64,000 nt of DNA, taken from assembly GCA_964443495.1 (NCBI GenBank), contig CAYUCS010000002.1, forward strand, positions 260,021 through 324,020, read 5' to 3'. The stretch's first letter is position 1, and each line of letters begins with the position of its first letter. The translations under genes and the position numbers were made by a program. This stretch comes from an uncultured Gammaproteobacteria bacterium. Lineage in GTDB: Bacteria > Patescibacteriota > Patescibacteriia > Patescibacteriales > GWE2-39-37. This document shows, one piece after another, positions 3,219 through 32,699 of the stretch. The notes beneath the pieces are model-generated. The model did not search any database. It was not told the origin of the DNA and worked only from the letters and a program-made list of their open reading frames with translations.

Positions 3219-3620
3219 TTACCCGACAATCTCCTTCTTCAACTGCCTCAGCTTAGTGGCTGTGCTGGCATCGAAGACCTGGTCTCCTGCTCGCAGGATG
3301 AAACCGGCGATAATTTCCGGGGATACGCGATGGTTCAGCTCCACCTTCTTCGCGCCAGTGACTTCCTTGGCGTAAGCCTCGAGGTCGTGCTTGGTTTCAG
3401 TATCGATTTCCTGAGCGGTTACCACCTCGACTTCGGCCAAACCCTGCCCTTCGTTCCAGAGCTTTGAGAATTCGGCCAGCACATCATCGATCTTGTTCAA
3501 CGCGTTGCTCTTACGCAGGGCGGCGATGAATTGCTCGATGATTTCTGGCAACTCCTTCTTGCTTGCCTCTGCCGTCGATTGGTACAAGGCGTTGGCGTAC
3601 TGTTTGGCGCTTGCTTTCAT
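3219..3620 (-). CDS. atpH: ATP synthase delta (OSCP) subunit, short form
   Basis: 133 aa, positioned between atpF and atpA. The C-terminal ...SPEIIAGFILRAGDQVFDASTATKLRQL is OSCP-like. It is shorter than the usual ~180 aa. Confidence 0.8.
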   Translation of the reverse strand: MKASAKQYANALYQSTAEASKKELPEIIEQFIAALRKSNALNKIDDVLAEFSKLWNEGQGLAEVEVVTAQEIDTETKHDLEAYAKEVTGAKKVELNHRVSPEIIAGFILRAGDQVFDASTATKLRQLKKEIVG

Positions 3621-6647: not shown

Positions 6648-9600
6648 CTAGTTCCCCATCTGCCCCACCCAGCCGAAGATGTCCTCGAAGTTCTTGAGGA
6701 TGAGCTGAAAGACGGATTCCTTCTGTTTGGGGGTGAGGATGGTATAGACCTTGCTCGTAGTCTTGTTGCCGGAAGAGTCGGTGGCGGTGATGCGGAAGGT
6801 ATAGACGGTGCCGGAGTCGAACTTGGTGACCACGGCCACGTGCTTCCTCGAATAGGTGGTCTCGAGAGCGGTCTTGTCCGGGAACTCCTTGTCGTCGGTG
6901 ACCACGCCTTTGACGTACTGGACCTGTCCGACGGTCGGCTCGTTGGTCTGCCAGGAGACGATGGTCTGGACCTTCAACTGCTTGCCCTGGGAGAGGGCGG
7001 ATTCGGTCTGGACGTTGGTGATCTGGGGCGGCAGGTCGTCCTTGGAGGTGGTGAACTGCTCGATCACTTCTTCGGCCAGGCGGTTCTTGGCGTCCTTGCT
7101 CTGGAGCCGGACTTCGTAGATGACGCCGGATTCGAGGTCCTTGGCCGTGAGCTCATGCATGGTGGTAGTGATCTTGTTCTCTTCGGTCTTAGCCTCCTCG
7201 ACCGCCAGCTTGCCCGAGCGGTAGGGGGTGACGACCAGCTTGGTGTCGGCCTCGAGGTTGGTGGACCAGCGGAAGACGGCGGTCGAGGGATCCTTGACTT
7301 CGGAACCGTAGGTCAGGACCTCGAGTCCTTCTTCCTTGGTCTTGAAGGTGAAATCCCGGGACTTGGCCTCGGGGCCCAGCTGGGCCTTCGAACGGAGCTG
7401 GTAGTGGTAGGTAGTGTTGGGTCTCAATCCGGCGATGCGGACCGAGTGGTTGGTGGAGAGGTTGTTGGCGTCGCCGACCACCTGGAGATAGCCGTTGTCG
7501 CCCTCGGCCTTGATGTAGACGCCCTCCGGGGCATAGGCCACCAGCGAGCTGGCCTCCTTGTCGGTAATCCAGGAGATGTTGGCGGTACTGGCCCCGGTGA
7601 CCACCAGCGGCTCGCCGCCGAGGATGGGGCCGGGTATGGAACCGGCCAGCTTCTCGATGGTGTCGAACTGAGTCAGGAGCGTGGTCTCGAGGGTGCCTAA
7701 AGAGACCTGGTTGGCTACCTGGCTCATGATCTCCATGGCCTTGGCGGCAGCGGCCAGGAGGATATTGGTCTTGTTCTCTTCCTTGTTCTCGGCTTGCTCG
7801 ACCAGCTTGGCAATTTCAGCGTCTGACTTGCCTTCGTCTTTCAGTTGGGCTTCGAGGGTGGGGGTGGTGAAGGTCTGGAGATTGGAAGACGCCTGGTTGC
7901 CCGAACGGTCGAAGACGGAAATCTTGTACGAATATTTGCTGTCGGGTTCCAAATTAGTAATCGCCAGGCTTGAACCGGCGCTGTAGGCTGACGAACCGAG
8001 GCTGCCCGAGAGGTCGTTGTCCTTGCCATAGTTGACGATGCCGATCGTTTCCTCGTCCGTCTTCCAATTGACCTTGGCACTGTCCGACTTCAGGTCGGTG
8101 ATGCGGATATCGCTAATCCTCGGCGCCACCTTGTCGGTCTTGTCGATGATGAGGGTGCCGCCTCCGCCCCTTGAATTGGCGGCCGCCAATTGCTGTTGCA
8201 GGCTGGCGACTTGCGATTGGAGGCTGGCGATCGTGGCCGCATCATTCGATCCGGTCGAGGAAGCGGTTGCCTGGAGCGCGGCAATCTGGGCCAGAAGGTC
8301 GTCGATCTGATCCAGGCTCGACTGATAATCCGTCGGGTCGATCGGAGCCGCGGCCGTCGTGAAAGAATACTCGCTCGACGTGGCGCCCTGGCCCAAGCCA
8401 TCAATTGAAGATACTTGGAAGTAGTAAGCAGTGGATGATGCCAGGCCGTTAAGCGTCACGGCATGCTCGGTCGTCATGGCAATGCTTGACTGGGCAAATG
8501 GGTAAATGCCGGTCGAAGTACCGTAACGGACCAGGGTGTCGGCCAGGTGGTTGGTCGAATATGTGACAAGGGCCGAGTTGCTGGTGACCGTACCTGTGGC
8601 AACCGAACTGATGACTAGGGGCTGGGCCACCGCCTGGAAATCATGATAAGTAGCCGGGGTGGCTGGGTCATAAGCAGTGTTGCCGGAAGGATCGGTTGAT
8701 TTGACTCGCAGATAATATGTGGTGCCGGCAGCCAAATTATCCAAAACGACAGAGTGGCTGGTCACGGCTTCGCTGCGCCCCACTTCCTTGAAATCGGTTT
8801 CGAACGAGACGGATGAGGTGGAATATTGGATATAGCTGGTTGACTGCTCATTAGTCGTCCAGCTGATCGAGGCCGAAGTCGGATCGGTCACGATGAAATT
8901 ACCCGGCAAAGTGATGACTGGCGCGGCGGTGTCCGGGGCGGCAGCCGTGTTCAAGCTGCTCGTGGCCGCGGCCGCGTTGCCGTTCTGATCCCTGGCCAGG
9001 ATGCTGATGGTATAGCTGGTCGAGGAAGAAAGGCCGGAGAAGTCGAAATAATGATTGGAGTTGAGCGTATCGATGGTGATCGACCAGACTTCGGCCGGAT
9101 CGGTATTGTTGGTGAGGGTTACGGTGCTGGTGGCCGCCTTGGCAGTAGCGAACTGGATGACGGCCGAATGGTCGGTGGTAGCCGAAGTGATGCCGGAGAT
9201 AGTCGGCGGCGTCAAATCCTGGGTGGTGGCGAAGGTGTAATATGCTCCCTGGTTGGAGTCGATATCATTGCTTGACTTGACCTGGAAGTAGTAAAGCTTG
9301 CCCGGATCGAGGCCGAAGAGAGTGACAACGTGATCGGTCACGAGATCAGAGCTGCCGAGCTCGACCGAACCGGCAAGGTTGGAGTTGGCGGAGAATACGA
9401 CATAGCTGTCGGCCGGCAAATCGGTCTGCCAGGCAATCTCAGCCGAGCTGTTGCCCACCGAGACCACGCGGGTCGAAGAAGCGACGATGGCCGGTCCGGC
9501 CGCGGTAGTGAACGACAGTCCGGGCAGGACACAGTCGGTCATGCCAGCGACGCCAGTAGGGCTGGTCGAGCGGGGTTGGAAATAATAGGTCGTGGCCGGC

Positions 9601-12600
9601 GACAAGCCGGTGACGGTCACCTGGTGCCGGCCGAGCGAGCCGGCATTGTCGAGCATGGTAGCCACGCCGACAACTTGGACCGGCGAGGTCGAGCCGGTAA
9701 AATCGCAGCTCTCCGTCGATTGGTAATAGACGAGCGAGTCGGAGCGGGTATCGGTATCCCAGGAGATGGCCGCCGAAGTGGTATAGGTAGTCGAGGCCAC
9801 GTTCGAAATCCTGGGCGCGACGCCGGAAGAGCCGCCGCCGCCTTCGCCGGCATTCTGCGTGCCGTCAGCGAAGCCCCACATCGGGACCGAACGATACGAG
9901 GTGTTGCCGCGGCTATCTTCAATGGAGACGATATACCAAGTATCGACTTGAGGGGTGAGACCGGTATCATCGACCGTATCGGTGAAATAGTTGACGTTCA
10001 TCGGGCTGCCGGTCGCGACTAACTCGAAGCTGGCAGCATTATTGGTCAGGCTGCGATAGATGTTGTAGTGGCTGAAACCGTTAGGCGGCGAGCTAGTCGG
10101 CTTTTTCCAAGTGATGAATAAACGATATTCGGCCGGGTTAACGAACAGATTGGAAGTATCCTGGATCATGGTCATGCGCAGGATATCCGGCAAGGTTACG
10201 GTGGTAGTTGAACGGTTGTCACGGCTGTCACGGACCTGGATATACGCCGTCGGCTGATTTCCCATATCGAAACTGGTCGTGGCCCCTAGAGCCTGGAACC
10301 CGGCATTGTCGGTAAAGCCGGCATAGGCGGACGGGTCGGTGGAAAGGCGGAACTCCATGGCCGTATCTTCGGTGATGTCGTCGAATACGATTGTCGAATT
10401 CGGCGCGTGGTCGGCCTTGACTGCGATATTGTTGATGACCGGCTTCTTGGTGTCGAGCTCGAAGGTCGTCGAGGTGGCATAGCCGTAACGGTTGACGATC
10501 TCATTGTCATCGATCTTGAGCCGTACCCTGAATTGCCCGGAATTGCGGTAAGCTTCCGGGAAATCGACAGTCGGCAGCCAAGTAAGCTCATGAGCGGTCC
10601 AGTTGCTGTTTTCGCCGATCGGATCGGTCGAGGTAGAGACGCTTTCATCAACTGAGGCTAGGCCGATGTCGCCGGTCACGGCCGTGGCCGTAGCCCAGCC
10701 AGACCCGGTGCCGATGTCGGGACAGGTGGTGGTCGAGAGGGTCTGGTCGGTGCAGTATTCCAACGAGACGGTCACCTGCCCCGGGGTGGTACCGGAATCC
10801 GTATCTCGATCGCGGACTTCGTAACGAATAGCAACGGAACCTGTGGCCGATTGGACGGGGTCGATGGCATAACGAGCCTCCGGCGGACCGTTGACCACAT
10901 AAGTCAGGCTGATGTCGTCCAGGACAGGAGAGTAGCGGCCGTCGGAAAACAGAGCCGCCCGGTATTGCATAAATTGATCGGACGTGCCCCCAGTGGCGCC
11001 ATCCTTGAATAACAACGGCATAACCTCCGTACCAGAAGCCATAGTAAACCAAGTCTGGCTCGTGCCATCAGGCCCGAGCCATGGCGTCCAGGCGCTGCCT
11101 TCGGCAGAGGTGCGGATATGAAAACGTATGTCGGTACCGCCGAGCAAGACCTCAGACCAAGAAAGCTTGGCCAGCATATTAGCCGGGGATTGGGAGTCGA
11201 AGGGGGAAGCAATGGTAAATGAAGGCTGGGGACCGGGTTCTAGGGCGGATGGATTTCCTTGGTTATAATGTGCCCCGATTTCCATCGGAGAAAGAGGGCG
11301 GTTGTAAATAGCAACTTCATCGATTTGACCATTCCAATATCGATTACTGGTTGCGCCAACCCCGCCAATCTGGACGCCAGGCGCCTTGTTGCTGATTTGA
11401 CCGGCAGTGCGTACAGTGCTTGAATCTAAAATGCCATTAACATACAATTTACCGATTTGGCCGTCATAAGTGAACGCTACGTGATACCATGCATCCAAAT
11501 TCAAAACGGATGTCGTTGAGGCGGGCTGTCCATTAAAAATGTACGTATTTGTGTCGTCCCACGCACCGAAATTCAACCTCCTACTGCTATCCACATAAAA
11601 CCACCATTCATTACCAGACAAGCGCTTACTAATAATGCCGTAAACATTCGAAGGCGTGGAATATAATTTGATCCATGCCTCAGCGCTCACTTTTGTGGGA
11701 ACCAAATCCATGTTGGTCATCAAAAAAGACGACGACGCGGTGTTGGCATAACTTGACCCCAACCAATCCAAATCCCCGACTTGATCAGCATATGACATGT
11801 TCGCCCCACCGGTTGAAGAGGCAACTGCGTTGTTTCCGAAACCTGAATAGTCAACGATTGACGCGCCGTCCGCAATCGCGCTGCCGTTCACTCCATCAAA
11901 ATGCCATAATCCGACCGGGCCGCCATTGCCGTAATATGAATAACTTATATTGACAGCGTCCAAGCTAGGCGTCTCACCTATGAAATCACTTTTAAGAAAC
12001 GCTTTATACCTCAAATATTGCGCTCCGTTATGAAGCGAATCAATCATCGAATCTTTGGCAAGATAATAAGTGGATGTAGAATTGCTCGGACCATAAAAAC
12101 CGAGTGTGCCGCTATTATTACCCCAAACTATGAAATTGTCGTAAGCAACGGTTTCATTATTGGCAAGCGAGTCCTGATCTCCCAGCAAAAGGTTTGCTTT
12201 TGCCGCATCGGTTATCTTGTCCCCATTGCCGCCTACAAATCGAGAAAAATTAATCCATCCGCTTGAAAGCGAATCGGAAATCCAGCAATTGACAGTATTG
12301 CCACTTCTCACAACCCTAAGCTTACCAACTCTTTGGGGCTGATAGCTGCTGAGAATGGTGGCAGTCGAAGTCGCGCTGCTCGTGTAATTGGAAAAGCCCG
12401 TTATTCCGTTAGTCAAAGTCACTGAACATTGCCATTGCTTTCCTCCTGCCGTCATTTGCATCATTTGAGCGTTTGAGCCGCTTGATATGGACATGCCGGT
12501 CATATCATAATCCACCTGGACATCAAAATCACCGGCAAGATCGGCGGCCATCAGAAGCGATGGATACTTAGCAGTTGCGGCCTGAGAAGTTATAAGATAG

Positions 12601-15338
12601 CGCCCGCCTGCCTGCTGCTGAGCTGTTCCGACCGGACTCGAAAGAACCCATTTCCCTGTCGGGTTTGTTGCTTCATCATAAATACTCAAGCTCGCCCCAT
12701 CGAAATTATCGGTATAATTTTCGTTATTGGAGCTAATTTGCAATTTGATCTGGTTACTACCAGCCAAACCGCTGGCCAATGTTTCATCCCAAGACAAGAA
12801 CATCGGCAATTCGTTGCTTCTTAATCCCAAATTGATCACCGGAGAAATAAACTCTCCGCCAGAAGCATAGGTCGCCGTCGGATCGCCACTATTGAAAGCG
12901 TTGACCGTATTCCAAATGGTTCCATTAGTATAAACTCTCGCGTTTGCCGTGCTGACTGCGACATAACCGTACTGATTGGCAAGTGTGATCTTGCCGGCCG
13001 AAGACATCGCCCCGGCACCACCTGAATCGAACTTATAAAAATTGGCGGAATTGAAAGAAATCCCATAAAGCTTATTATTGACATTGTCCACTGCCAGACT
13101 TGCCAAAAAAAGTGAATCTCCTAAAGCGGACCAACTAGTAGTACTCATCGCACCCGCGTCACCAGAATTGAATTTCAGAACCTCCCACCTAGTGGTATCA
13201 ACCACATACACCCTATGGTATTTGGGGTCGACGGCCACTTCGGTCGGGCCACTAAACTGGCCGACTCCGACACCAAACGAACCAAGCGTATACAGCGGGG
13301 ACGAACCGATGGGACCTGCACCTCCGGAGTCTAATTTAACGACCCTTCTATTCGAGCTATCAATAACATATACCCTATCATAATAAGAATCGACAGCTAC
13401 TCCGATTGGACTGGAAACAGTCGACGATGACATAGTCGAAGTTGACATCGGTCCGTATCCGCCAGAATCGAATTTTATAACCCGATTTCTTCCTTGCTCT
13501 GTAACATACACCTTGTCATATTTAAGATCTATTGCGATGCTTTGCGGACTCGACAACCCTCCCAGAACATAGACATTATTGCCGAAGGTCGTCCCTCCGG
13601 TACCCGAATCGAATTTAATAACCCTGTTATTACCCCTATCAACCATATACAGCTTATTGTATTTATCATCAATGAAAATTCCTCTAGGCTGATTCAGTGC
13701 CTTAGTGCCCGCGGCGCCACTTCCAATACTGTCAATAATGGACATTGTCCCGGTGGTGCTCGCATAATACATCGCGCCATAATATGTGGGTTGACCCCAA
13801 AATAAGAGATTGTGTTGTGCATCAAAAAAATTATTCCCCGGCGACCCTGTCGGCTCCGGTAGAACATCCCAGGTTGTCGAAGACATGGGTCCGTTACTCA
13901 GACCGGCATCGAATCTGACGATCCGATTATTTGAATAATCGGAGGCATAAACTTTGCCAGCTACAATATCGACAGAGACACCGCTAGGCGCGCTGAATTG
14001 CCCAACTCCGTTGCCAGCCGCTCCTATCGTATACCAGGTACTGGTTGAAAATCCCCCGGCAACGCTTACTCCGAGCTTTACTATACGATTATTGACCGAA
14101 TCGGCCACGTAAGCCAGGCTGGATGTCGCATCGATGAAAATTTGCTTCGGATCGCTAAACTGACCGATCGCCGCACCAACCGTGCCCAGCTTGCTCCAAT
14201 TGGCGGTCGACACATTCGAGGTTCTCGTGCCAGCATTAAACCTAAAAATACTATCGCATCCGTCGCTTGTTCCGTAAAGAAGATTATTGACCGTATCAAG
14301 GTACAGGCCCTTTACGTATTGAATCTGGCCCGTGCCGCAACCATAATTACTATACTCGAACAATTTCGACCCGATCGGCCCGGCGCCGCCGGAATCGTAT
14401 TTGAACAGCTTGCCAGAACTATCGCTCCAAAAATACAGAATATTGTTTTCCGTATCAACCGTCAGAGCCTGGGCATTGGCCCCAGCAAGCTGGGTAATGT
14501 TATCACCGAATTTAGTTCCGCCTTGTCCGGAATCAAACTTATAAATAGGTCCGCTGCCACCAGCGGCATAGATCTTGTTGTATTTGTTATCGACAAACAC
14601 TTGCGAGAAAGCATAGAGGTATTGCGGCACGGTTGAAATATTCGTGTTGAACGTCGTGGCAGCACTGGATCTTTTCAATGAGATAGAGGCATCACCTGAG
14701 CCGACAATTTCAACATTATTTAATAACCCTGCCGCAAAATCGCTTGCGTATGTAGCCGTCGAGGTGGCGGCGCCCGCATTCAAAGCTATTGAAGTCGTGG
14801 CTGCTAAATTGCTATCGGCCAAGAAATACCTAGCCCAATTTGCCAGGTTGGACGGAGTTGCGACTGCAACGGCATCGGCGCCATCCACCCAGCTCGACTG
14901 CATCCAGCCATAGCTGGCCGCCTTGCCCGGACTCTTGAAGCCGAAAAGGAAATTCGTTGCGATGGAGGTGATTACAGCCACAACAACCATCGTGCCGATG
15001 CCAGTCAAGGAAAAGACCCTGACCCGATTCTGCAATTGTTTAAAATAATAATACGAAAAAGGGCAGCTCCTGAGCTCCCTTTGCCTAAAAAACAGATTGA
15101 ATGAGTTTCCTGGATCGGCCAGGAGGACGATGAAGAACTTCAAGATATCGAGAGCGATCTGCCAGAACACCAGATAGATATTCAGCCTGATGACGCTGAA
15201 ATAAAAAACACTCGAAGCGTACGGCTGGTTGAGCCGTTGTTCGAGCTTTTGGGCTAATTTGAGCTCAGTCCGCTGGACCTCGCTTTGCAAGAGTTGGAAT
15301 AATTTCAGCATGAAAAAAAACATGAAAGTTTGTCGCAA
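6648..15338 (-). CDS. giant N-terminally anchored surface protein (NHL-like beta-propeller repeats, two concanavalin/LamG-like domains, ~10 Fn3-like modules, coiled-coil linkers)
   Basis: Uninterrupted 2,896-codon ORF.
- About 11 repeats with the signature NNR(I/V)(V/I)KFDSGG.GP (nt ~12880-14620).
- LamG_3-type motif WYHVAFTYDG...LYVNG...WNGQIDEVAIYNRPLS (nt ~11256-11915).
- Repeated ISW.T....V.Y...H.V.L.GL.P.T.YY modules (nt ~6650-10090).
- Start uncertain: the track start is TTG 15338, ATGs occur at 15323 and 15311, and a signal-anchor-like MVVVAVITSIATNFLF begins at 14990. Confidence 0.9.
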   Translation of the reverse strand: MRQTFMFFFMLKLFQLLQSEVQRTELKLAQKLEQRLNQPYASSVFYFSVIRLNIYLVFWQIALDILKFFIVLLADPGNSFNLFFRQRELRSCPFSYYYFKQLQNRVRVFSLTGIGTMVVVAVITSIATNFLFGFKSPGKAASYGWMQSSWVDGADAVAVATPSNLANWARYFLADSNLAATTSIALNAGAATSTATYASDFAAGLLNNVEIVGSGDASISLKRSSAATTFNTNISTVPQYLYAFSQVFVDNKYNKIYAAGGSGPIYKFDSGQGGTKFGDNITQLAGANAQALTVDTENNILYFWSDSSGKLFKYDSGGAGPIGSKLFEYSNYGCGTGQIQYVKGLYLDTVNNLLYGTSDGCDSIFRFNAGTRTSNVSTANWSKLGTVGAAIGQFSDPKQIFIDATSSLAYVADSVNNRIVKLGVSVAGGFSTSTWYTIGAAGNGVGQFSAPSGVSVDIVAGKVYASDYSNNRIVRFDAGLSNGPMSSTTWDVLPEPTGSPGNNFFDAQHNLLFWGQPTYYGAMYYASTTGTMSIIDSIGSGAAGTKALNQPRGIFIDDKYNKLYMVDRGNNRVIKFDSGTGGTTFGNNVYVLGGLSSPQSIAIDLKYDKVYVTEQGRNRVIKFDSGGYGPMSTSTMSSSTVSSPIGVAVDSYYDRVYVIDSSNRRVVKLDSGGAGPIGSSPLYTLGSFGVGVGQFSGPTEVAVDPKYHRVYVVDTTRWEVLKFNSGDAGAMSTTSWSALGDSLFLASLAVDNVNNKLYGISFNSANFYKFDSGGAGAMSSAGKITLANQYGYVAVSTANARVYTNGTIWNTVNAFNSGDPTATYASGGEFISPVINLGLRSNELPMFLSWDETLASGLAGSNQIKLQISSNNENYTDNFDGASLSIYDEATNPTGKWVLSSPVGTAQQQAGGRYLITSQAATAKYPSLLMAADLAGDFDVQVDYDMTGMSISSGSNAQMMQMTAGGKQWQCSVTLTNGITGFSNYTSSATSTATILSSYQPQRVGKLRVVRSGNTVNCWISDSLSSGWINFSRFVGGNGDKITDAAKANLLLGDQDSLANNETVAYDNFIVWGNNSGTLGFYGPSNSTSTYYLAKDSMIDSLHNGAQYLRYKAFLKSDFIGETPSLDAVNISYSYYGNGGPVGLWHFDGVNGSAIADGASIVDYSGFGNNAVASSTGGANMSYADQVGDLDWLGSSYANTASSSFLMTNMDLVPTKVSAEAWIKLYSTPSNVYGIISKRLSGNEWWFYVDSSRRLNFGAWDDTNTYIFNGQPASTTSVLNLDAWYHVAFTYDGQIGKLYVNGILDSSTVRTAGQISNKAPGVQIGGVGATSNRYWNGQIDEVAIYNRPLSPMEIGAHYNQGNPSALEPGPQPSFTIASPFDSQSPANMLAKLSWSEVLLGGTDIRFHIRTSAEGSAWTPWLGPDGTSQTWFTMASGTEVMPLLFKDGATGGTSDQFMQYRAALFSDGRYSPVLDDISLTYVVNGPPEARYAIDPVQSATGSVAIRYEVRDRDTDSGTTPGQVTVSLEYCTDQTLSTTTCPDIGTGSGWATATAVTGDIGLASVDESVSTSTDPIGENSNWTAHELTWLPTVDFPEAYRNSGQFRVRLKIDDNEIVNRYGYATSTTFELDTKKPVINNIAVKADHAPNSTIVFDDITEDTAMEFRLSTDPSAYAGFTDNAGFQALGATTSFDMGNQPTAYIQVRDSRDNRSTTTVTLPDILRMTMIQDTSNLFVNPAEYRLFITWKKPTSSPPNGFSHYNIYRSLTNNAASFELVATGSPMNVNYFTDTVDDTGLTPQVDTWYIVSIEDSRGNTSYRSVPMWGFADGTQNAGEGGGGSSGVAPRISNVASTTYTTSAAISWDTDTRSDSLVYYQSTESCDFTGSTSPVQVVGVATMLDNAGSLGRHQVTVTGLSPATTYYFQPRSTSPTGVAGMTDCVLPGLSFTTAAGPAIVASSTRVVSVGNSSAEIAWQTDLPADSYVVFSANSNLAGSVELGSSDLVTDHVVTLFGLDPGKLYYFQVKSSNDIDSNQGAYYTFATTQDLTPPTISGITSATTDHSAVIQFATAKAATSTVTLTNNTDPAEVWSITIDTLNSNHYFDFSGLSSSTSYTISILARDQNGNAAAATSSLNTAAAPDTAAPVITLPGNFIVTDPTSASISWTTNEQSTSYIQYSTSSVSFETDFKEVGRSEAVTSHSVVLDNLAAGTTYYLRVKSTDPSGNTAYDPATPATYHDFQAVAQPLVISSVATGTVTSNSALVTYSTNHLADTLVRYGTSTGIYPFAQSSIAMTTEHAVTLNGLASSTAYYFQVSSIDGLGQGATSSEYSFTTAAAPIDPTDYQSSLDQIDDLLAQIAALQATASSTGSNDAATIASLQSQVASLQQQLAAANSRGGGGTLIIDKTDKVAPRISDIRITDLKSDSAKVNWKTDEETIGIVNYGKDNDLSGSLGSSAYSAGSSLAITNLEPDSKYSYKISVFDRSGNQASSNLQTFTTPTLEAQLKDEGKSDAEIAKLVEQAENKEENKTNILLAAAAKAMEIMSQVANQVSLGTLETTLLTQFDTIEKLAGSIPGPILGGEPLVVTGASTANISWITDKEASSLVAYAPEGVYIKAEGDNGYLQVVGDANNLSTNHSVRIAGLRPNTTYHYQLRSKAQLGPEAKSRDFTFKTKEEGLEVLTYGSEVKDPSTAVFRWSTNLEADTKLVVTPYRSGKLAVEEAKTEENKITTTMHELTAKDLESGVIYEVRLQSKDAKNRLAEEVIEQFTTSKDDLPPQITNVQTESALSQGKQLKVQTIVSWQTNEPTVGQVQYVKGVVTDDKEFPDKTALETTYSRKHVAVVTKFDSGTVYTFRITATDSSGNKTTSKVYTILTPKQKESVFQLILKNFEDIFGWVGQMGN

Positions 15339-30260: not shown

Positions 30261-31181
30261 TCAATTGCCGTTAGCCACGCCGAATGGTATATGGACCAAG
30301 GGCACGCCATCGACATCGCTCAGGTGGACCAATTGGTCATCGAAATACATGTGCGGCCTGAGCTTTTCCAAAACTGCCTTCTTGGGCAGTCCGCCCAAGA
30401 AGAAAGCATAATCGACCTCGACACCCCAGGCGCGCAGCGTGGTAACGAACCGTTCATGGGCTGGTGCGCATCTGGCCGTGACGATCGCCGTCTTGATCAG
30501 GCGGCGATATGCCGGATCAGCCGATTCAGCGGCTAATTCAAGCTGCCTGATAGCCATCAGCTGACGCACCAGGCGGGCCAATGGGCCGGATTTGTGCGCA
30601 ACCGCTGCCGAATCCTCTTCCGAAGACTGGAATTCATCCAGACCGCGTTCTTTGTAAACCCGTTCTGCTGCATCGTCGATGATGACGCCGTCAAAATCGA
30701 ATGCTATCCGCAGTTCGCCATCATCTCCGTCATCCACCGCTTTGTTGCCGATAACCAGGCCGGCGCTATACCCCCTTCTCAAGGATTCGCGAACGTCCTG
30801 CTCGTTGCCGGACAAGAAAAGCGAGATGTTGAACGCCGGCAGAAAATCATAGAACTCGCCGCCAGGGAAGAAGCTCCCTCTCGTGATATCGAGTCCATAA
30901 TGCTTGATCGAGCGGAAGACTCTCAAGCCGGTTTCAGGACTGTTGTGCGAGAACAGGATGACTTCGACTGGACGTAATTCCGGAAAAATCTGATTCAGCC
31001 GCAAAAAGCGCCTGATGAACGGGAAGGCGGTTCCCGGGCCGAGCGGCTTGTCGATATTCCGTTCCTGATACAGCTTGTAAGCTGCCGCCCCTTTCTTGAC
31101 GAACACTGCGTCCGAAGCTGCCAAATCGAAGAGCGCGCTGGAAGCGATGCCGATTACGATCTTACCTTCTAGCTTTTTCAC
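30261..31181 (-). CDS. 5'-nucleotidase-family protein (PF06189-like)
   Basis: 306 aa. ...IGIASSALFDL..., ...RIAFDFDGVIIDD... and ...AIVTARCAPAHERFVTTLRAWGVEVD..FFLGG resemble the bacterial 5'-nucleotidase (HAD-like) family. GTG start at 31181 with AAGGGAG 6 nt upstream. Confidence 0.7.
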   Translation of the reverse strand: MKKLEGKIVIGIASSALFDLAASDAVFVKKGAAAYKLYQERNIDKPLGPGTAFPFIRRFLRLNQIFPELRPVEVILFSHNSPETGLRVFRSIKHYGLDITRGSFFPGGEFYDFLPAFNISLFLSGNEQDVRESLRRGYSAGLVIGNKAVDDGDDGELRIAFDFDGVIIDDAAERVYKERGLDEFQSSEEDSAAVAHKSGPLARLVRQLMAIRQLELAAESADPAYRRLIKTAIVTARCAPAHERFVTTLRAWGVEVDYAFFLGGLPKKAVLEKLRPHMYFDDQLVHLSDVDGVPLVHIPFGVANGN

Positions 31182-31242
31182 GTTTATCTCCCTTCTTCAT
31201 TTATGAATGTGCGTATTTAATTTGCCTATCGAAAATAACCAC

Positions 31243-31532
31243 AAAAAAAACAGAGTAACCGCTCTGTTTGCCCTCTGACGTGGATGATTCTGCCTAGAAG
31301 CTAAAGGATAACCCTTATTAGCCCGGTAAAATCAAAGGAGGGAAGATTTTGCCAGACGGCTCCTAGACAAAGCTATCAACGCCAAAATGAATATGATACA
31401 ATTGTTCTATCCGTCAACGTTAGCGATCAAGGCACTACTTGCCATAAGGGATATAAGCCACGCATATGGTCAAGGAGGAAAGCCATATGTCGCACCACAC
31501 CCTTAAACAAGTAGTGCTTCAACCACTAACGA
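31243..31532 (-). ncRNA. candidate structured RNA: either a long cis-regulatory leader of the 5'-nucleotidase gene or an independent sRNA
   Basis: Bounded on the minus strand by TTGACA-17-TAAGGT (31567-31539) and an intrinsic terminator (CAGAG-CGGTTA-CTCTG plus U8, 31266-31243). It contains a 10-bp stem (31508-31520 with 31429-41), nested helices, and two apical loops exposing CCUCC. There is no convincing ORF. Confidence 0.5.
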
Positions 31533-31538
31533 TACCCT

Positions 31539-31567
31539 ACCTTATCACGAAGGCTAACTATTGTCAA
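31539..31567 (-). promoter_or_regulatory. candidate promoter of the structured RNA / 5'-nucleotidase leader
   Basis: The minus strand reads TTGACA-17 nt-TAAGGT with a TG two nt upstream of the -10 (extended -10-like). Confidence 0.45.
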
Positions 31568-31598
31568 TAGCCCGCTTATTAACCTTTTTTGCACATAA

Positions 31599-32699
31599 AT
31601 GGCATCGGAATCGGTAATCTGGGCCGCCATCGGCTCTTTTTCTAAATTCGGGCCCGCCAGGCTAAGCCGGCTCGAAGCGCATTTCCGGGCAGCAGCCAGA
31701 GTTCTCGAGGCCCCAGCCAACGAGCTGGCCAATGCCGGGCTTGAACCATCCCTGGCCCAGGAATTCGTGGCCTGGCGCCATAGCCTGAATCTGGCCCAAT
31801 TCCAGGAACAACTGGAACGGGAAAAGATCAATATAATAATGCGCGCCGACCCGGAATACCCGGAATTATTGGCCGCGACTTACCAACCGCCATTCCTATT
31901 ATATAGCCGAGGATTTGCCAGTGGCAAAGAGTCGGCCCTAGCCGTAGTCGGAGCCAGAAAATTCAGCGTTTATGGGCGCCAAGCAGTCGAGCAACTGGTC
32001 GGGCAGGTTGCCAGAAATATCACCATCGTCAGCGGCTTAGCCCTGGGAATCGACGCCCTCGCCCATCAAGCCTCGCTGGAAGCTGGCGGGCGCACCGTGG
32101 CAGTGCTGGGCTCAGGCCTAGACAAGCAGAATATCTATCCCTCGAACAACCGCTACCTGGCCGACAAGATCATCGCCAACGGCGGACAGCTGCTATCCGA
32201 ATTCGCCCCAGGCACCCCGCCATTGAAACACCACTTCCCTTTGCGCAACCGCATCATTTCGGGAATCAGCCGAGCCACCCTGGTAATCGAGGCGGCCATC
32301 AAATCCGGCTCACTCATCACCGCCTACCAAGCACTTGAACAAGGTCGAGAGGTTTTTGCCGTGCCCGGCAGCATCTATTCTCCCCTGTCCGCTGGCACCA
32401 ACCAACTGATCAAACAAGGGGCCACTAGCATCACTTCGGCGGACGACATCATCTCTGCCCTTGACTTAACAGACCTAAGTCAGTATATTGAGAAGCATGC
32501 CAAGACAAAAACCCCGCCTTCGCTCGAACCGACCGAGGCGGCAATCATGTCGGCACTGGGGCAAGAGGCCAAGCATATCGAGCTAATTATAGCCGAAACC
32601 GGGCTTTCTGCTAGCCAGGCCAACGGCGCCCTGACCCTTCTTGAAATCAAGGGTTTGGCCAGGAATGTCGGCGGCATGCAATACATAAAAAAATTTTAA
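31599..32699 (+). CDS. dprA: DNA-processing protein DprA (Smf)
   Basis: ...VSGLALGIDALAHQASL..., ...RNRIISGISRATLVIEAAIKSGSLITA..ALEQGREVFAVPGSI... are the Rossmann-like DprA core. A C-terminal winged-helix-like tail follows. Confidence 0.93.
   Translation: MASESVIWAAIGSFSKFGPARLSRLEAHFRAAARVLEAPANELANAGLEPSLAQEFVAWRHSLNLAQFQEQLEREKINIIMRADPEYPELLAATYQPPFLLYSRGFASGKESALAVVGARKFSVYGRQAVEQLVGQVARNITIVSGLALGIDALAHQASLEAGGRTVAVLGSGLDKQNIYPSNNRYLADKIIANGGQLLSEFAPGTPPLKHHFPLRNRIISGISRATLVIEAAIKSGSLITAYQALEQGREVFAVPGSIYSPLSAGTNQLIKQGATSITSADDIISALDLTDLSQYIEKHAKTKTPPSLEPTEAAIMSALGQEAKHIELIIAETGLSASQANGALTLLEIKGLARNVGGMQYIKKF

What the first reader, a model, noticed from the sequence alone, without database searches (positions are those of the whole stretch)
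31243..31567. About 290-nt structured RNA with two CCUCC apical loops, sited between a promoter and a terminator upstream of the 5'-nucleotidase gene
The 417-nt gap between the divergent 5'-nucleotidase and dprA genes holds three elements on the minus strand:
- a TTGACA-17-TAAGGT promoter,
- a highly paired region,
- a canonical terminator (CAGAG-CGGTTA-CTCTG plus U8) ending 62 nt before the GTG start.

The paired region has these features:
- CGTTAG pairs with CTAACG.
- A 10-bp GCACTACTTG/CAAGTAGTGC helix is present.
- TAAGGG pairs with CCCTTA.
- CATATGG pairs with CCATATG, closing a 13-nt loop CUUUCCUCCUUGA.
- A second hairpin, AAAAUC/GAUUUU, closes the loop UUCCCUCCUUU.

Promoter, long structured leader, terminator, RBS and gene in that order is the architecture of a transcription-attenuation riboswitch or leader. 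Both apical loops are complementary to Shine-Dalgarno sequences, including the AAGGGAG of the downstream gene. The element could therefore also act as an SD-sequestering sRNA.

I could not match it to any riboswitch or housekeeping RNA consensus I know (purine, ykkC, ZTP, c-di-GMP, T-box, 6S, SRP, tmRNA, RNase P).
Basis: partly seen in the sequence, partly recalled or inferred. Interest (0 to 1): 0.6.

Follow-up and report, generated by a model that had tools for sequence, protein, structure and literature searches.

The report
Falkowbacteria small RNA with CCUCC loops
This is a real, strongly structured non-coding RNA gene of about 290 nt, conserved across the uncultivated Candidatus Falkowbacteria and absent from Rfam; it is not a riboswitch for the neighbouring 5'-nucleotidase gene and is most likely a stand-alone regulatory RNA whose CCUCC loops copy the ribosome's Shine-Dalgarno-binding sequence.

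Summary
The fold is far better than chance (z = -6.45). Rfam 15 has no match.

The window comes from a Candidatus Falkowbacteria genome (CPR/Patescibacteria). Relatives were sampled through neighbouring proteins. Their conserved layout is lytR-der-pth-[RNA, opposite strand]-dprA-topA. Most lack the 5'-nucleotidase gene, which is a clade-specific insertion, so the riboswitch/leader reading fails.

The RNA has two modules:
- D1 is a 114-nt hairpin with apical loop UUUCCUCCUUG.
- D2 is a three-way junction with loop CCCUCCU.

About 40 homologues show strong covariation: 97% and 92% of cells are paired, against 35-50% when the partners are slid. A near-consensus promoter (TTGACA-17-TGnTAnnnT) and terminators are conserved on the minus strand.

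The modules occur fused, as tandem genes with their own signals, or singly (D1-only and D2-only lineages). That pattern suggests redundant sibling sRNAs.

The best mechanism is inferred, not shown: the exposed loops pair with Shine-Dalgarno sites and repress the minority of SD-led mRNAs. Only 8 of 39 neighbouring genes have an SD.

Verdict: a new RNA family of a known functional kind. Function is untested.

The parts
31539..31567 (-). Promoter P1: -35 TTGACA (31567-31562), 17-nt spacer ending in TGA, -10 TAAGGT (31544-31539). Predicted start near 31532.
   Evidence: Read from the sequence. TTGAC[A/G/T]-17-(TGn)TAnnnT is present in 36 of 41 homologous loci, which is every locus whose upstream 110 nt is intact. 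The promoter spacer diverges while the RNA does not. No transcript data are available.
31418..31531 (-). Domain D1: a 114-nt irregular hairpin. It has a basal stem (CGUUAGUGGUUGA/UUGAUCGCUAACG), the conserved helices UACUUG/CAAGUA (31513-31508 with 31441-31436) and AAGGG/CCCUU (31504-31500 with 31450-31446), and an apical stem.
   Evidence: The covariance model R1 scores 103 bits on the minus strand and 26 on the plus strand, with a single copy in the window. Of 32 consensus pairs, 20 have compensatory changes; 97.1% of cells are paired against 38-49% when slid; 0 of 500 shuffles reach the observed values.
31470..31482 (-). D1 apical loop CUUUCCUCCUUGA. The CCUCCUU core is identical to the core of the 16S rRNA 3' tail.
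   Evidence: UUUCCUCCUUG is invariant in the lineages sampled through proteins only (window, L005, L006, L012, L014, L016). Predicted unpaired probability of the core is 1.00. Duplex with AAGGAGG is -10.3 kcal/mol, against -10.1 for a generic anti-SD tail.
31388..31417 (-). Linker between D1 and D2, carrying a promoter-like TTGACG (31417-31412), 16-nt spacer and CATATT (31395-31390). There is no U-run after D1 in this genome.
   Evidence: The promoter scan reports it. The homologous linker of the low-GC relatives has a U-run after D1 followed by TTGACA-17-TAACAT in 17 loci. Linker length varies from 0 to 218 nt and tolerates insertions. The closest relatives L001, L002 and L004 lack the -35, so an internal promoter in this clade is doubtful.
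31273..31387 (-). Domain D2: a long outer stem (including CUAGGAG 31366-31360 paired with CUUCUAG 31300-31294) enclosing a hairpin with the CCCUCC loop and a small variable hairpin (31317-31302).
   Evidence: Of 32 consensus pairs, 25 have compensatory changes; 92.2% of cells are paired against 35-50% when slid; 0 of 500 shuffles reach the observed values. The small hairpin is deleted in L002. D2 alone sits under a P1-type promoter in L066.
31334..31344 (-). D2 apical loop UUCCCUCCUUU, closed by AAAAUC/GAUUUU.
   Evidence: CCUCCU is invariant in all 28 aligned D2 sequences, which were not selected on this motif. Unpaired probability is 1.00.
31243..31269 (-). Intrinsic terminator: stem AAACAGAG/CUCUGUUU with loop CGGUUA (31269-31248), and U8 (31250-31243).
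   Evidence: Found by the terminator scan. A hairpin plus U-run of unrelated sequence follows D2 in most relatives.
30261..31181 (-). 5'-nucleotidase gene (PF06189). This is a clade-specific cargo gene downstream of the RNA and is not part of the conserved unit.
   Evidence: Pfam E = 7.6e-112. It is absent from the locus in L004, L005, L006, L012, L014, L016, L066 and L067. Only two close homologues exist.

Best explanation
The interval encodes a stand-alone non-coding RNA conserved across Candidatus Falkowbacteria. It is driven by a near-consensus sigma-70-type extended -10 promoter and ended by an intrinsic terminator.

It has two structurally independent and probably paralogous modules, D1 and D2. 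Each is a long irregular hairpin that displays an open pyrimidine loop with the core CCUCC(U). That core is the same sequence the 16S rRNA 3' tail uses to bind Shine-Dalgarno sites.

In this genome the two modules are transcribed as one RNA of about 290 nt. In other lineages they are separate tandem genes, or only one of them is kept.

Inferred mechanism: the exposed loops pair in trans with the SD region (AAGGAGG-like) of mRNAs and block 30S binding. Most genes sampled around this locus in Falkowbacteria have no SD, so the RNA would act selectively on the minority of SD-led genes. These include the horizontally acquired genes that tend to land just downstream of it.

Shown: the gene, its strand, its structure, its conservation, its independence from the 5'-nucleotidase gene, and its modularity.

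Inferred: expression, trans action, SD pairing and the identity of the targets.
For: Gene and strand:
- The RNA body is almost invariant in three genomes whose flanking proteins are 76-84% identical, while the promoter spacer and the post-terminator DNA diverge.
- The promoter and terminators are conserved on the minus strand.
- Many G-U pairs fit only the minus strand. The CM scores 81-130 bits on the sense strand against 21-49 on the antisense strand.

Structure:
- The fold has z = -6.45.
- Covariation is strong in both domains.

Independence from the downstream gene:
- The synteny lytR-der-pth-[RNA]-dprA-topA holds without the 5'-nucleotidase. The next gene downstream is usually the convergent pth.

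Modularity and redundancy:
- D1-only loci exist (L021, L023, L058, L065).
- A D2-only locus under a P1-type promoter exists (L066).
- Fused forms with a 0-13-nt linker exist (L012, L022, L036), as do tandem forms with a U-run plus a second promoter.
- The D1 model hits D2 full-length at 24-29.5 bits.

Loops:
- CCUCC is invariant in lineages sampled independently of the RNA sequence.
- The loops are predicted to be unpaired.
- They pair with AAGGAGG about as well as a 16S tail does.

Context:
- Only 8 of 39 called genes in relatives have an SD-like motif.

Precedent:
- sRNAs with anti-SD motifs in hairpin loops silence mRNAs by occluding the RBS. Examples are alpha-r14/NfeR1 (PMC10746234), the cuckoo RNAs (PMC4615179), and the S. 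aureus Rsa RNAs and RNAIII (PMC2790875).
Against: - There is no expression, 5'/3'-end or interaction data, because the organisms are uncultivated.
- A 7-nt CCUCCUU seed would pair with any strong SD. No target with extended or conserved complementarity was found in the neighbouring genes.
- Base-pairing sRNAs usually conserve only the seed. Here some helices are also sequence-invariant (UACUUG/CAAGUA, AAGGG/CCCU, CUAGG/CUAG), and the whole RNA is near-identical across genomes with 76-84% protein identity. That points to an additional constraint such as a protein partner or tertiary structure.
- The metagenome homologues were retrieved with a pattern that required TACTTR, AAGGG and TTTCCTCCTT. 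Invariance of those bases in that subset is therefore by construction.
- The SD count rests on 39 genes called by others.
Confidence: 0.45

Rival explanations
1. Protein-binding or decoy RNA. The RNA is the scaffold of an RNP, or it titrates a factor that recognises the CCUCC-containing 3' tail of 16S rRNA (a ribosome-maturation, modification, hibernation or nuclease factor). This would be analogous in logic to 6S RNA or CsrB rather than to a base-pairing sRNA.
For: - Conservation extends well beyond the loops. Sequence-invariant helices and internal loops are seen in protein-sampled lineages.
- The full RNA is near-identical across genomes with 76-84% protein identity.
- A very strong constitutive-looking promoter is present in every lineage.
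- There are two copies of a 16S-tail-like sequence.
Against: - No candidate partner gene is linked to the locus. The neighbours are der, pth, dprA and topA.
- D1-only and D2-only lineages exist although the two domains share little beyond the loop and the basal stem. This fits a seed-based function more easily than a specific protein-binding architecture.
- There is no similarity to 6S, CsrB or Y RNA models.
Confidence: 0.25
2. Cis-acting leader. The RNA, or at least D2, acts on the gene immediately downstream when one is present. Its CCUCC loop would sequester that gene's SD, or its terminator would attenuate read-through.
For: - Different genes have been inserted directly after the RNA on its own strand in at least seven lineages.
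- Several of them have strong SDs: 5'-nucleotidase, HAD hydrolase, a 105-aa family and a cupin-like ORF.
- No obvious terminator separates D2 from the gene in L045, L020/L056, L055 and L060.
Against: - Most lineages have no downstream gene on that strand. A terminator is followed by the convergent pth.
- In the window a strong terminator (8-bp stem, U8) precedes the gene. I identified no competing antiterminator, but I ran no systematic search for alternative folds.
- L001 and L002 have an extra ~150 nt between the terminator and the gene.
- L014 and L034 cargo genes lack an SD.
- The RNA matches no riboswitch model.
Confidence: 0.08
3. Regulator of its neighbours by promoter competition or antisense effects. 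P1 lies back-to-back with the dprA start region, so firing of P1 could occlude the dprA promoter. Alternatively, a read-through pth-dprA transcript would be fully complementary to the RNA.
For: - The dprA ATG (31599) is only 32 nt from the P1 -35 hexamer.
- No separate plus-strand promoter was found upstream of dprA.
- The pth-RNA-dprA arrangement holds in 10 of the 11 lineages sampled through flanking proteins; the eleventh (L068) is cut 175 nt upstream of dprA and shows no P1.
Against: - Promoter competition or interference needs no conserved 290-nt structure with covarying helices and invariant loops.
- pth has its own terminator in relatives, for example L004.
- No promoter on the opposite strand is conserved.
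Confidence: 0.07
4. The plus strand is the expressed one. On that strand the loops read AAGGAGG and could serve as ribosome-binding sites for micro-ORFs, or as GGA-loop binding sites for a CsrA-type protein.
For: In the window, the plus strand reads AAGGAGGAAAGCCAT-ATG at the D1 loop. The plus strand also folds better than chance (z = -4.98).
Against: - A start codon 4-10 nt after AGGAGG occurs in only 6 of 39 D1 and 12 of 36 D2 homologues. Most of the resulting ORFs are 3-11 codons long.
- G-U pairs become A-C mismatches on the plus strand.
- The CM scores are 60-80 bits lower on the plus strand.
- The promoter and terminators are on the minus strand.
Confidence: 0.02

Closest known systems
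alpha-r14 / NfeR1 and the 'cuckoo' RNA family of Alphaproteobacteria
   Same: These have two to four adjacent hairpins, each displaying the same ultraconserved anti-SD motif in its loop. The stems covary. The motifs are functionally redundant and silence mRNAs by occluding the RBS (PMC10746234, PMC4615179). The number of hairpins also varies between members, as the number of modules does here.
   Different: - Their loop motif is CCUCCUCCC; here the loops are UUUCCUCCUUG and CCCUCCU.
- Their hairpins are short and sequence-variable. Here each module is about 115 nt with sequence-invariant internal helices, and D2 has a three-way junction.
- The phylum differs (CPR).
- There is no Rfam match.
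S. aureus Rsa sRNAs (RsaE/RoxS) and RNAIII with unpaired UCCC motifs
   Same: C-rich unpaired motifs in hairpin loops bind SD sequences and block initiation-complex formation, without Hfq. Several copies occur per RNA, and the RNAs carry a 5' hairpin and a 3' terminator (PMC2790875).
   Different: There is no sequence or model similarity. The loop here reproduces the 16S tail core CCUCCUU rather than UCCC. The host genomes are largely SD-less.
Tandem sibling sRNAs such as AbcR1/AbcR2 (from PMC10746234 and general knowledge)
   Same: Two related sRNA genes lie in tandem, each with its own promoter and terminator, and carry similar anti-SD seeds. The low-GC Falkowbacteria have this layout: P1-D1-U-run followed by TTGACA-17-TAACAT-D2-terminator.
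   Different: Here the two genes are fused into one transcript in some clades, including the window, and either one can be lost. D1 and D2 resemble each other only weakly.
Streptococcal csRNAs (CiaR-dependent sRNAs that repress comC). This comparison is recalled from memory and was not tested against the literature here.
   Same: They are small RNAs with anti-SD sequences that act on competence genes. The RNA here always lies next to the competence gene dprA.
   Different: csRNAs are about 90-150 nt and carry the anti-SD/anti-AUG sequence between two stem-loops. The Rfam csRNA model gives no match. dprA here has no SD to pair with.
Transcription-attenuation riboswitches and leaders
   Same: The order promoter, long structured RNA, terminator, RBS and gene is present in this one genome.
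   Different: The downstream gene is not conserved with the RNA. No aptamer model matches. I did not identify a terminator/antiterminator alternative, though I did not search for one systematically.

Membership tests
Riboswitch / transcription-attenuation leader of the 5'-nucleotidase gene | The element stays upstream of the regulated gene, or of functionally related genes, in relatives. | tested here: not met
   The RNA is present in 8 protein-sampled lineages without the 5'-nucleotidase. The downstream neighbour is usually the convergent pth.
Riboswitch / transcription-attenuation leader of the 5'-nucleotidase gene | It matches a known aptamer or leader model. | tested here: not met
   There are 0 Rfam hits at gathering score over the whole window. 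The only hit at E <= 10 in 31100-31700 is a chance miRNA match.
Riboswitch / transcription-attenuation leader of the 5'-nucleotidase gene | Mutually exclusive terminator and antiterminator folds exist. | tested here: inconclusive
   The terminator is a separate hairpin 3 nt after D2 in the MFE and centroid folds. No conserved alternative pairing was identified, but no systematic search was run.
alpha-r14 / cuckoo RNA family | Each hairpin loop carries CCUCCUCCC. | tested here: not met
   The loops are CUUUCCUCCUUGA and UUCCCUCCUUU. CCUCCUCCC is absent from the window RNA and from the aligned homologues.
alpha-r14 / cuckoo RNA family | There are two to four adjacent hairpins with variable stems and a shared loop motif. 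| tested here: met
   Two modules share a CCUCC loop core and have covarying stems. One-module variants also exist. This supports 'works like', not membership.
Trans-acting anti-SD sRNA (functional class) | It is an independent transcription unit with its own promoter and terminator. | tested here: met
   P1 and the terminators are conserved. This is sequence evidence only, without transcript data.
Trans-acting anti-SD sRNA (functional class) | The seed is unpaired, conserved and complementary to the SD. | tested here: met
   CCUCC is invariant. Unpaired probability is about 1.0, and the duplex with AAGGAGG is about -10 kcal/mol.
Trans-acting anti-SD sRNA (functional class) | Pairing with target mRNAs and repression of translation are demonstrated. 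| not testable with these tools
   This needs toeprinting, reporter assays or RNA-RNA interactome data.
6S RNA | It is a single long hairpin of about 180 nt with a large central bubble that mimics an open promoter. | tested here: not met
   Covariation supports two separate hairpin domains, and either can occur alone. No 6S model matches.
Housekeeping RNAs (tmRNA, RNase P RNA, SRP RNA, tRNA) | It matches the family model. | tested here: not met
   ARAGORN finds no tRNA or tmRNA in the window. Rfam finds nothing.
Small-protein gene (either strand) | An ORF with a conserved start and frame is present. | tested here: not met
   Plus-strand starts are not conserved. Indels of 1-2 nt and compensatory stem changes run through both domains.

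The most novel reading that the evidence does not exclude
The RNA is not an ordinary target-specific sRNA. It would be an abundant, lineage-wide mimic of the 16S rRNA 3' tail, with two CCUCCUU loops on rigid conserved scaffolds. In a phylum whose core genes largely lack Shine-Dalgarno sites, it would globally compete with ribosomes for SD-led mRNAs, many of them recently acquired foreign genes. Alternatively it would titrate a factor that recognises the anti-SD tail. In effect this would be a dedicated RNA layer separating SD-dependent from SD-independent translation in a CPR lineage.
Probability: 0.15. Interest if true: 0.8.

Novelty: new member of a known kind. Interest (0 to 1): 0.5.

Why it matters
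Non-coding RNAs of the Candidate Phyla Radiation are almost undescribed, because the organisms are uncultivated and their genomes are small. My two literature searches found no paper on CPR small RNAs.

This is a well-supported new RNA family with clear covariation, defined ends and a single conserved locus across a candidate phylum. Its modular evolution is instructive: the two modules are fused, tandem, or present singly.

If the anti-SD reading is right, it gives a testable handle on how translation initiation is partitioned in a lineage where only about one gene in five around this locus has an SD. It also bears on how newly acquired SD-led genes are kept in check. Practically, the two alignments and the D1 model can be used to annotate Patescibacteria genomes and to stop gene callers placing spurious small ORFs on this locus, as happened in L014 and L015.

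Tried and rejected
RNA family searches:
- Rfam over the whole window at gathering score gave nothing. The region at E <= 10 gave only a chance miRNA hit.
- ARAGORN found no tRNA or tmRNA.

Collection scans:
- The first genome-collection scan used AAGGGN{10,32}TTCCTCCTTN{12,36}CCCTNNNNGCAAG, which was too strict because it fixed a 4-nt bulge. It gave 4 hits, of which only L009 is real. L008, L010 and L011 are chance matches, L011 lying in what reads as coding sequence.
- The first metagenome scan, with both conserved helices fixed, gave 0 hits. Later loci showed that those helices covary (TACTTA/TAAGTA) or vary (TCCT).
- The second metagenome scan gave 47 loci. Seven are false positives (L026, L028, L039, L037, L038, L049, L051), judged by reading the sequences, by duplication and by the absence of CM hits.
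- The phage and viral collections gave no match.

Hypotheses rejected or left open:
- Target prediction in the window with my own ORF and start calls was too noisy to use.
- Neighbouring SD-led genes show only the 7-nt core complementarity.
- A 6S-like single-hairpin fold, a small-ORF reading on either strand, and membership of alpha-r14/cuckoo were each tested and rejected (see the membership table).
- An internal promoter in the window (TTGACG-16-CATATT) is left open. It is supported by homology to the low-GC relatives, but its -35 is absent from the three closest relatives.
- L068 could not be scored. The contig begins 175 nt upstream of dprA, and those 175 nt do not hold P1.
Full report
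**Observation.**
- The gap between the 5'-nucleotidase gene (30261-31181, minus; PF06189, E = 7.6e-112) and dprA (31599-32699, plus) is 417 nt.
- TTGACA lies at 31567-31562. A 17-nt spacer ending in TGA and TAAGGT at 31544-31539 follow.
- The helices CGTTAG/CTAACG, GCACTACTTG/CAAGTAGTGC and TAAGGG/CCCTTA are present.
- CATATGG/CCATATG closes the loop CUUUCCUCCUUGA (31482-31470). AAAAUC/GAUUUU closes UUCCCUCCUUU (31344-31334).
- The terminator stem is at 31269-31248, with U8 at 31250-31243.

The 306-nt minus strand folds at -114 kcal/mol against -82 +/- 5 for dinucleotide shuffles (z = -6.45). The plus strand folds less well (z = -4.98). Rfam 15 gives nothing at gathering score anywhere in the window, and only a chance miRNA hit at E <= 10 in the region. 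ARAGORN finds nothing.

**Origin of the window.** The window's TopA and Der fall in 90% clusters whose named members come from a Candidatus Falkowbacteria MAG. Pth proteins next to homologues of the RNA are, wherever a name exists, also from Falkowbacteria.

**The RNA is not tied to the 5'-nucleotidase gene.**
- That protein has only two close homologues (83% and 76% identity). Identity then drops to 59% or less, in Proteobacteria and Bacteroidales.
- The two close homologues lie in the same arrangement (L001, L002).
- In the three-way alignment the RNA body is almost invariant from the predicted start to the terminator U-run. The promoter spacer and everything after the terminator diverge. 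L001 and L002 carry an extra ~150-nt inverted-repeat element before the gene.
- Sampling relatives through DprA instead shows the conserved order lytR-der-pth-[300-480-nt gap]-dprA-topA.
- The gap holds the same RNA on the strand opposite to its neighbours. Most of these loci lack the 5'-nucleotidase.
- In most loci the RNA's terminator is followed directly by the 3' end of the convergent pth.

A cis-regulatory leader of the 5'-nucleotidase is therefore not what is conserved.

**Collecting homologues.**
- A strict pattern scan of the species-representative genomes returned one true hit, L009, from a Falkowbacteria MAG. That pattern fixed a bulge length which later proved variable.
- A metagenome scan with TACTTRNNNAAGGGN{10,28}TTTCCTCCTT returned 47 loci. 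Seven are chance matches, judged by reading, by duplication, or by having no covariance-model hit.
- Bases fixed by that pattern are invariant in this subset by construction. For conservation of the loop and the helices I therefore rely on lineages sampled only through flanking proteins: window, L002, L004, L005, L006, L012, L014, L016, L066 and L067.

**Structure.** The RNA has two domains.
- D1 (31531-31418) is a 114-nt irregular hairpin.
  - It has a covarying basal stem and the helices UACUUG/CAAGUA and AAGGG/CCCU(U), with an asymmetric internal loop between them.
  - Above these lie a variable middle helix, a covarying apical stem and the loop UUUCCUCCUUG.
- D2 (31387-31273) has an outer stem of about 25 bp that includes CUAGGAG/CUUCUAG. 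It encloses a hairpin with the loop (C/U)CCUCCU and a small variable hairpin, which is deleted in L002.

Covariation was measured on two alignments.

| Measure | D1 (31 distinct sequences) | D2 (28 distinct sequences) |
|---|---|---|
| Consensus pairs with compensatory changes | 20 of 32 | 25 of 32 |
| Cells paired | 97.1% | 92.2% |
| Cells paired when 3' partners are slid | 38-49% | 35-50% |
| Covariation score (slid versions) | 0.418 (<= 0.115) | 0.499 (<= 0.171) |
| Shuffles reaching the observed values | 0 of 500 | 0 of 500 |

- UACUUG/CAAGUA itself covaries to UACUUA/UAAGUA in the L012 clade.
- A covariance model of D1 finds one copy in the window (103 bits on the minus strand, 26 on the plus) and one per homologous locus (81-130 bits sense, 21-49 antisense).
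- Frequent G-U pairs, the promoter and the terminators all point to the minus strand.

**Transcription signals.**
- Every locus with an intact upstream region has TTGAC[A/G/T], exactly 17 nt ending in TGn, then TAnnnT (36 of 41 rows). This is a near-consensus extended -10 promoter.
- In the window clade the predicted start abuts the D1 stem. In the low-GC genomes a 20-35-nt AU-rich leader precedes it.
- In the low-GC majority, D1 ends in a U-run (CGCUAUUUUUU). It is followed in 17 loci by TTGACA-17-TAACAT and then D2 with its own terminator. This is the layout of two tandem genes.
- The L012, L022 and L036 clade has a 0-13-nt linker with neither U-run nor promoter, so the two domains are fused.
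- The window clade has a 31-nt linker without a U-run. D1 and D2 should therefore be one RNA of about 290 nt from P1. The window has TTGACG-16-CATATT in the linker, but its three closest relatives lack that -35.
- Linkers tolerate insertions of 100-200 nt (L014, L024, L044).

**Modularity.**
- Four loci have D1 only, followed directly by a U-run (L021, L058, L065) or by a separate terminator hairpin (L023), and then pth. One of them is a named Falkowbacteria MAG.
- One DprA-sampled lineage, L066, has D2 only, placed directly under a P1-type promoter (TTGACA-17-TGTTAATAT).
- The D1 model matches D2 regions full-length on the same strand at 24-29.5 bits (E = 2e-4 to 0.02) in eight loci. The basal stems of both domains begin AUAG(Y)(R)UUYAG in the low-GC genomes.
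- The two modules therefore look like diverged duplicates that can replace each other. What they share is the open CCUCC loop on a long hairpin.

**Mechanism (inferred).**
- The CCUCCUU core is the sequence of the 16S rRNA 3' tail.
- Both loops are predicted to be unpaired. Their duplexes with AAGGAGG (-10.3 and -9.9 kcal/mol) equal that of a generic anti-SD tail (-10.1).
- sRNAs that show anti-SD motifs in hairpin loops and block initiation are well documented:
  - alpha-r14/NfeR1, with three redundant CCUCCUCCC loops (PMC10746234);
  - the cuckoo family, with 2-4 such hairpins (PMC4615179);
  - the S. aureus Rsa RNAs and RNAIII, with UCCC loops (PMC2790875).
- I therefore propose trans-acting SD occlusion.
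- In the gene calls attached to the related loci, only 8 of 39 genes have an SD-like motif. der, pth, dprA, topA and lytR have none. An anti-SD RNA would thus touch a minority of genes.
- Among the SD-led genes are several inserted just downstream of the RNA.
- No step of this mechanism has been shown. I give it 0.45. That the locus is an independent, structured ncRNA gene I put above 0.9.

**Rivals.**
- *Protein-binding or decoy RNA (0.25).* Conservation of helix sequence and near-identity of the whole RNA among genomes with 76-84% protein identity exceed what a seed-only sRNA needs. Against it, single-module lineages exist and no partner gene is linked.
- *Cis action on downstream cargo genes (0.08).* This may occur as a secondary effect where no terminator intervenes (L045, L020/L056, L055, L060). 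It cannot be the conserved role.
- *Promoter competition or antisense effects on dprA (0.07).* This would not require the structure.
- *Plus-strand micro-ORFs or GGA loops (0.02).* A suitably spaced start codon occurs in only 6 of 39 D1 and 12 of 36 D2 homologues. The strand evidence is also against it.

**Novelty and verdict.**
- The RNA matches no Rfam family. It is not a member of alpha-r14/cuckoo, because the CCUCCUCCC motif is absent. It is not 6S, tmRNA, RNase P or SRP RNA.
- My two literature searches found nothing on CPR small RNAs.
- It is a new RNA family belonging, most probably, to the known class of anti-SD-loop sRNAs.
- Its unusual features are its size, the conserved scaffolds, the fused/tandem/single modular evolution, and a host lineage that appears to use few SD sites.
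- Interest is moderate (0.5): a solid new ncRNA in an under-explored phylum with a testable hypothesis, but no functional evidence.

Noticed in passing
window 30261-31181; L001, L002; compare L004, L006, L012, L016: The 5'-nucleotidase gene (PF06189) is a clade-specific insertion between the RNA and pth. Outside two close relatives, its best homologues are only 59% identical or less and come from Proteobacteria and Bacteroidales, which suggests horizontal acquisition.
   Followed up: partly
L045, L034, L020/L050/L056, L029, L014/L015, L055, L060, L067 (between the RNA 3' end and pth): The spot just downstream of the RNA is a recurrent landing site for unrelated genes on the RNA's strand. These are a HAD_2 hydrolase, a response-regulator receiver, an unannotated ~105-aa family (L029's ORF looks related, by eye), a 123-aa ORF, a split cupin-like ORF, a 51-aa ORF, and a 104-aa ORF in L067. 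Several have strong SDs, and in four of these loci no obvious terminator separates them from D2.
   Followed up: partly
L001, L006, L012, L014, L016 (39 called genes); window dprA start 31599: Only 8 of 39 called genes have an SD-like motif at -18 to -3. der, pth, dprA, topA and lytR have AU-rich upstream regions without an SD. These Falkowbacteria therefore appear to use SD-independent initiation for most of the genes sampled here.
   Followed up: partly
L001 about 3330-3470 and L002 about 2830-2930 (locus coordinates); absent from the window: An element of about 150 nt with a 20-bp inverted repeat (CCCCTGGCAATCATTTTTGC ... GCAAAAATGATTGCCAGGGG) lies between the RNA terminator and the 5'-nucleotidase gene. 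In L001 its loop holds a further palindrome, CCTGCCTGCCGGCAGGCAGG. It may be a MITE-like insertion or a second structured element.
   Followed up: no
L024, L044, L014 versus L015 (linker between D1 and D2): Insertions of 100-200 nt have landed in the linker. In L024 the insertion is flanked by inverted repeats (GGGTCTGTCGCCGAAT... / ...ATTCGGCGACAGACCC), and the same repeat appears upstream of D1 in L027. This suggests a small mobile element active in these genomes.
   Followed up: no
window 31562-31601: The dprA ATG lies only 32 nt from the -35 hexamer of the RNA promoter, and the scan found no plus-strand promoter. The dprA promoter must overlap P1 or lie inside the RNA gene.
   Followed up: partly
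L014 3711-3971 (+) and L015 3755-3925 (-): Public gene calls place small hypothetical ORFs (86 and 56 aa) on top of the RNA gene. These are probably annotation artefacts.
   Followed up: no
window 6648-15338 (-): There is a very long ORF, about 2,900 codons from the first candidate start. It was not examined further.
   Followed up: no
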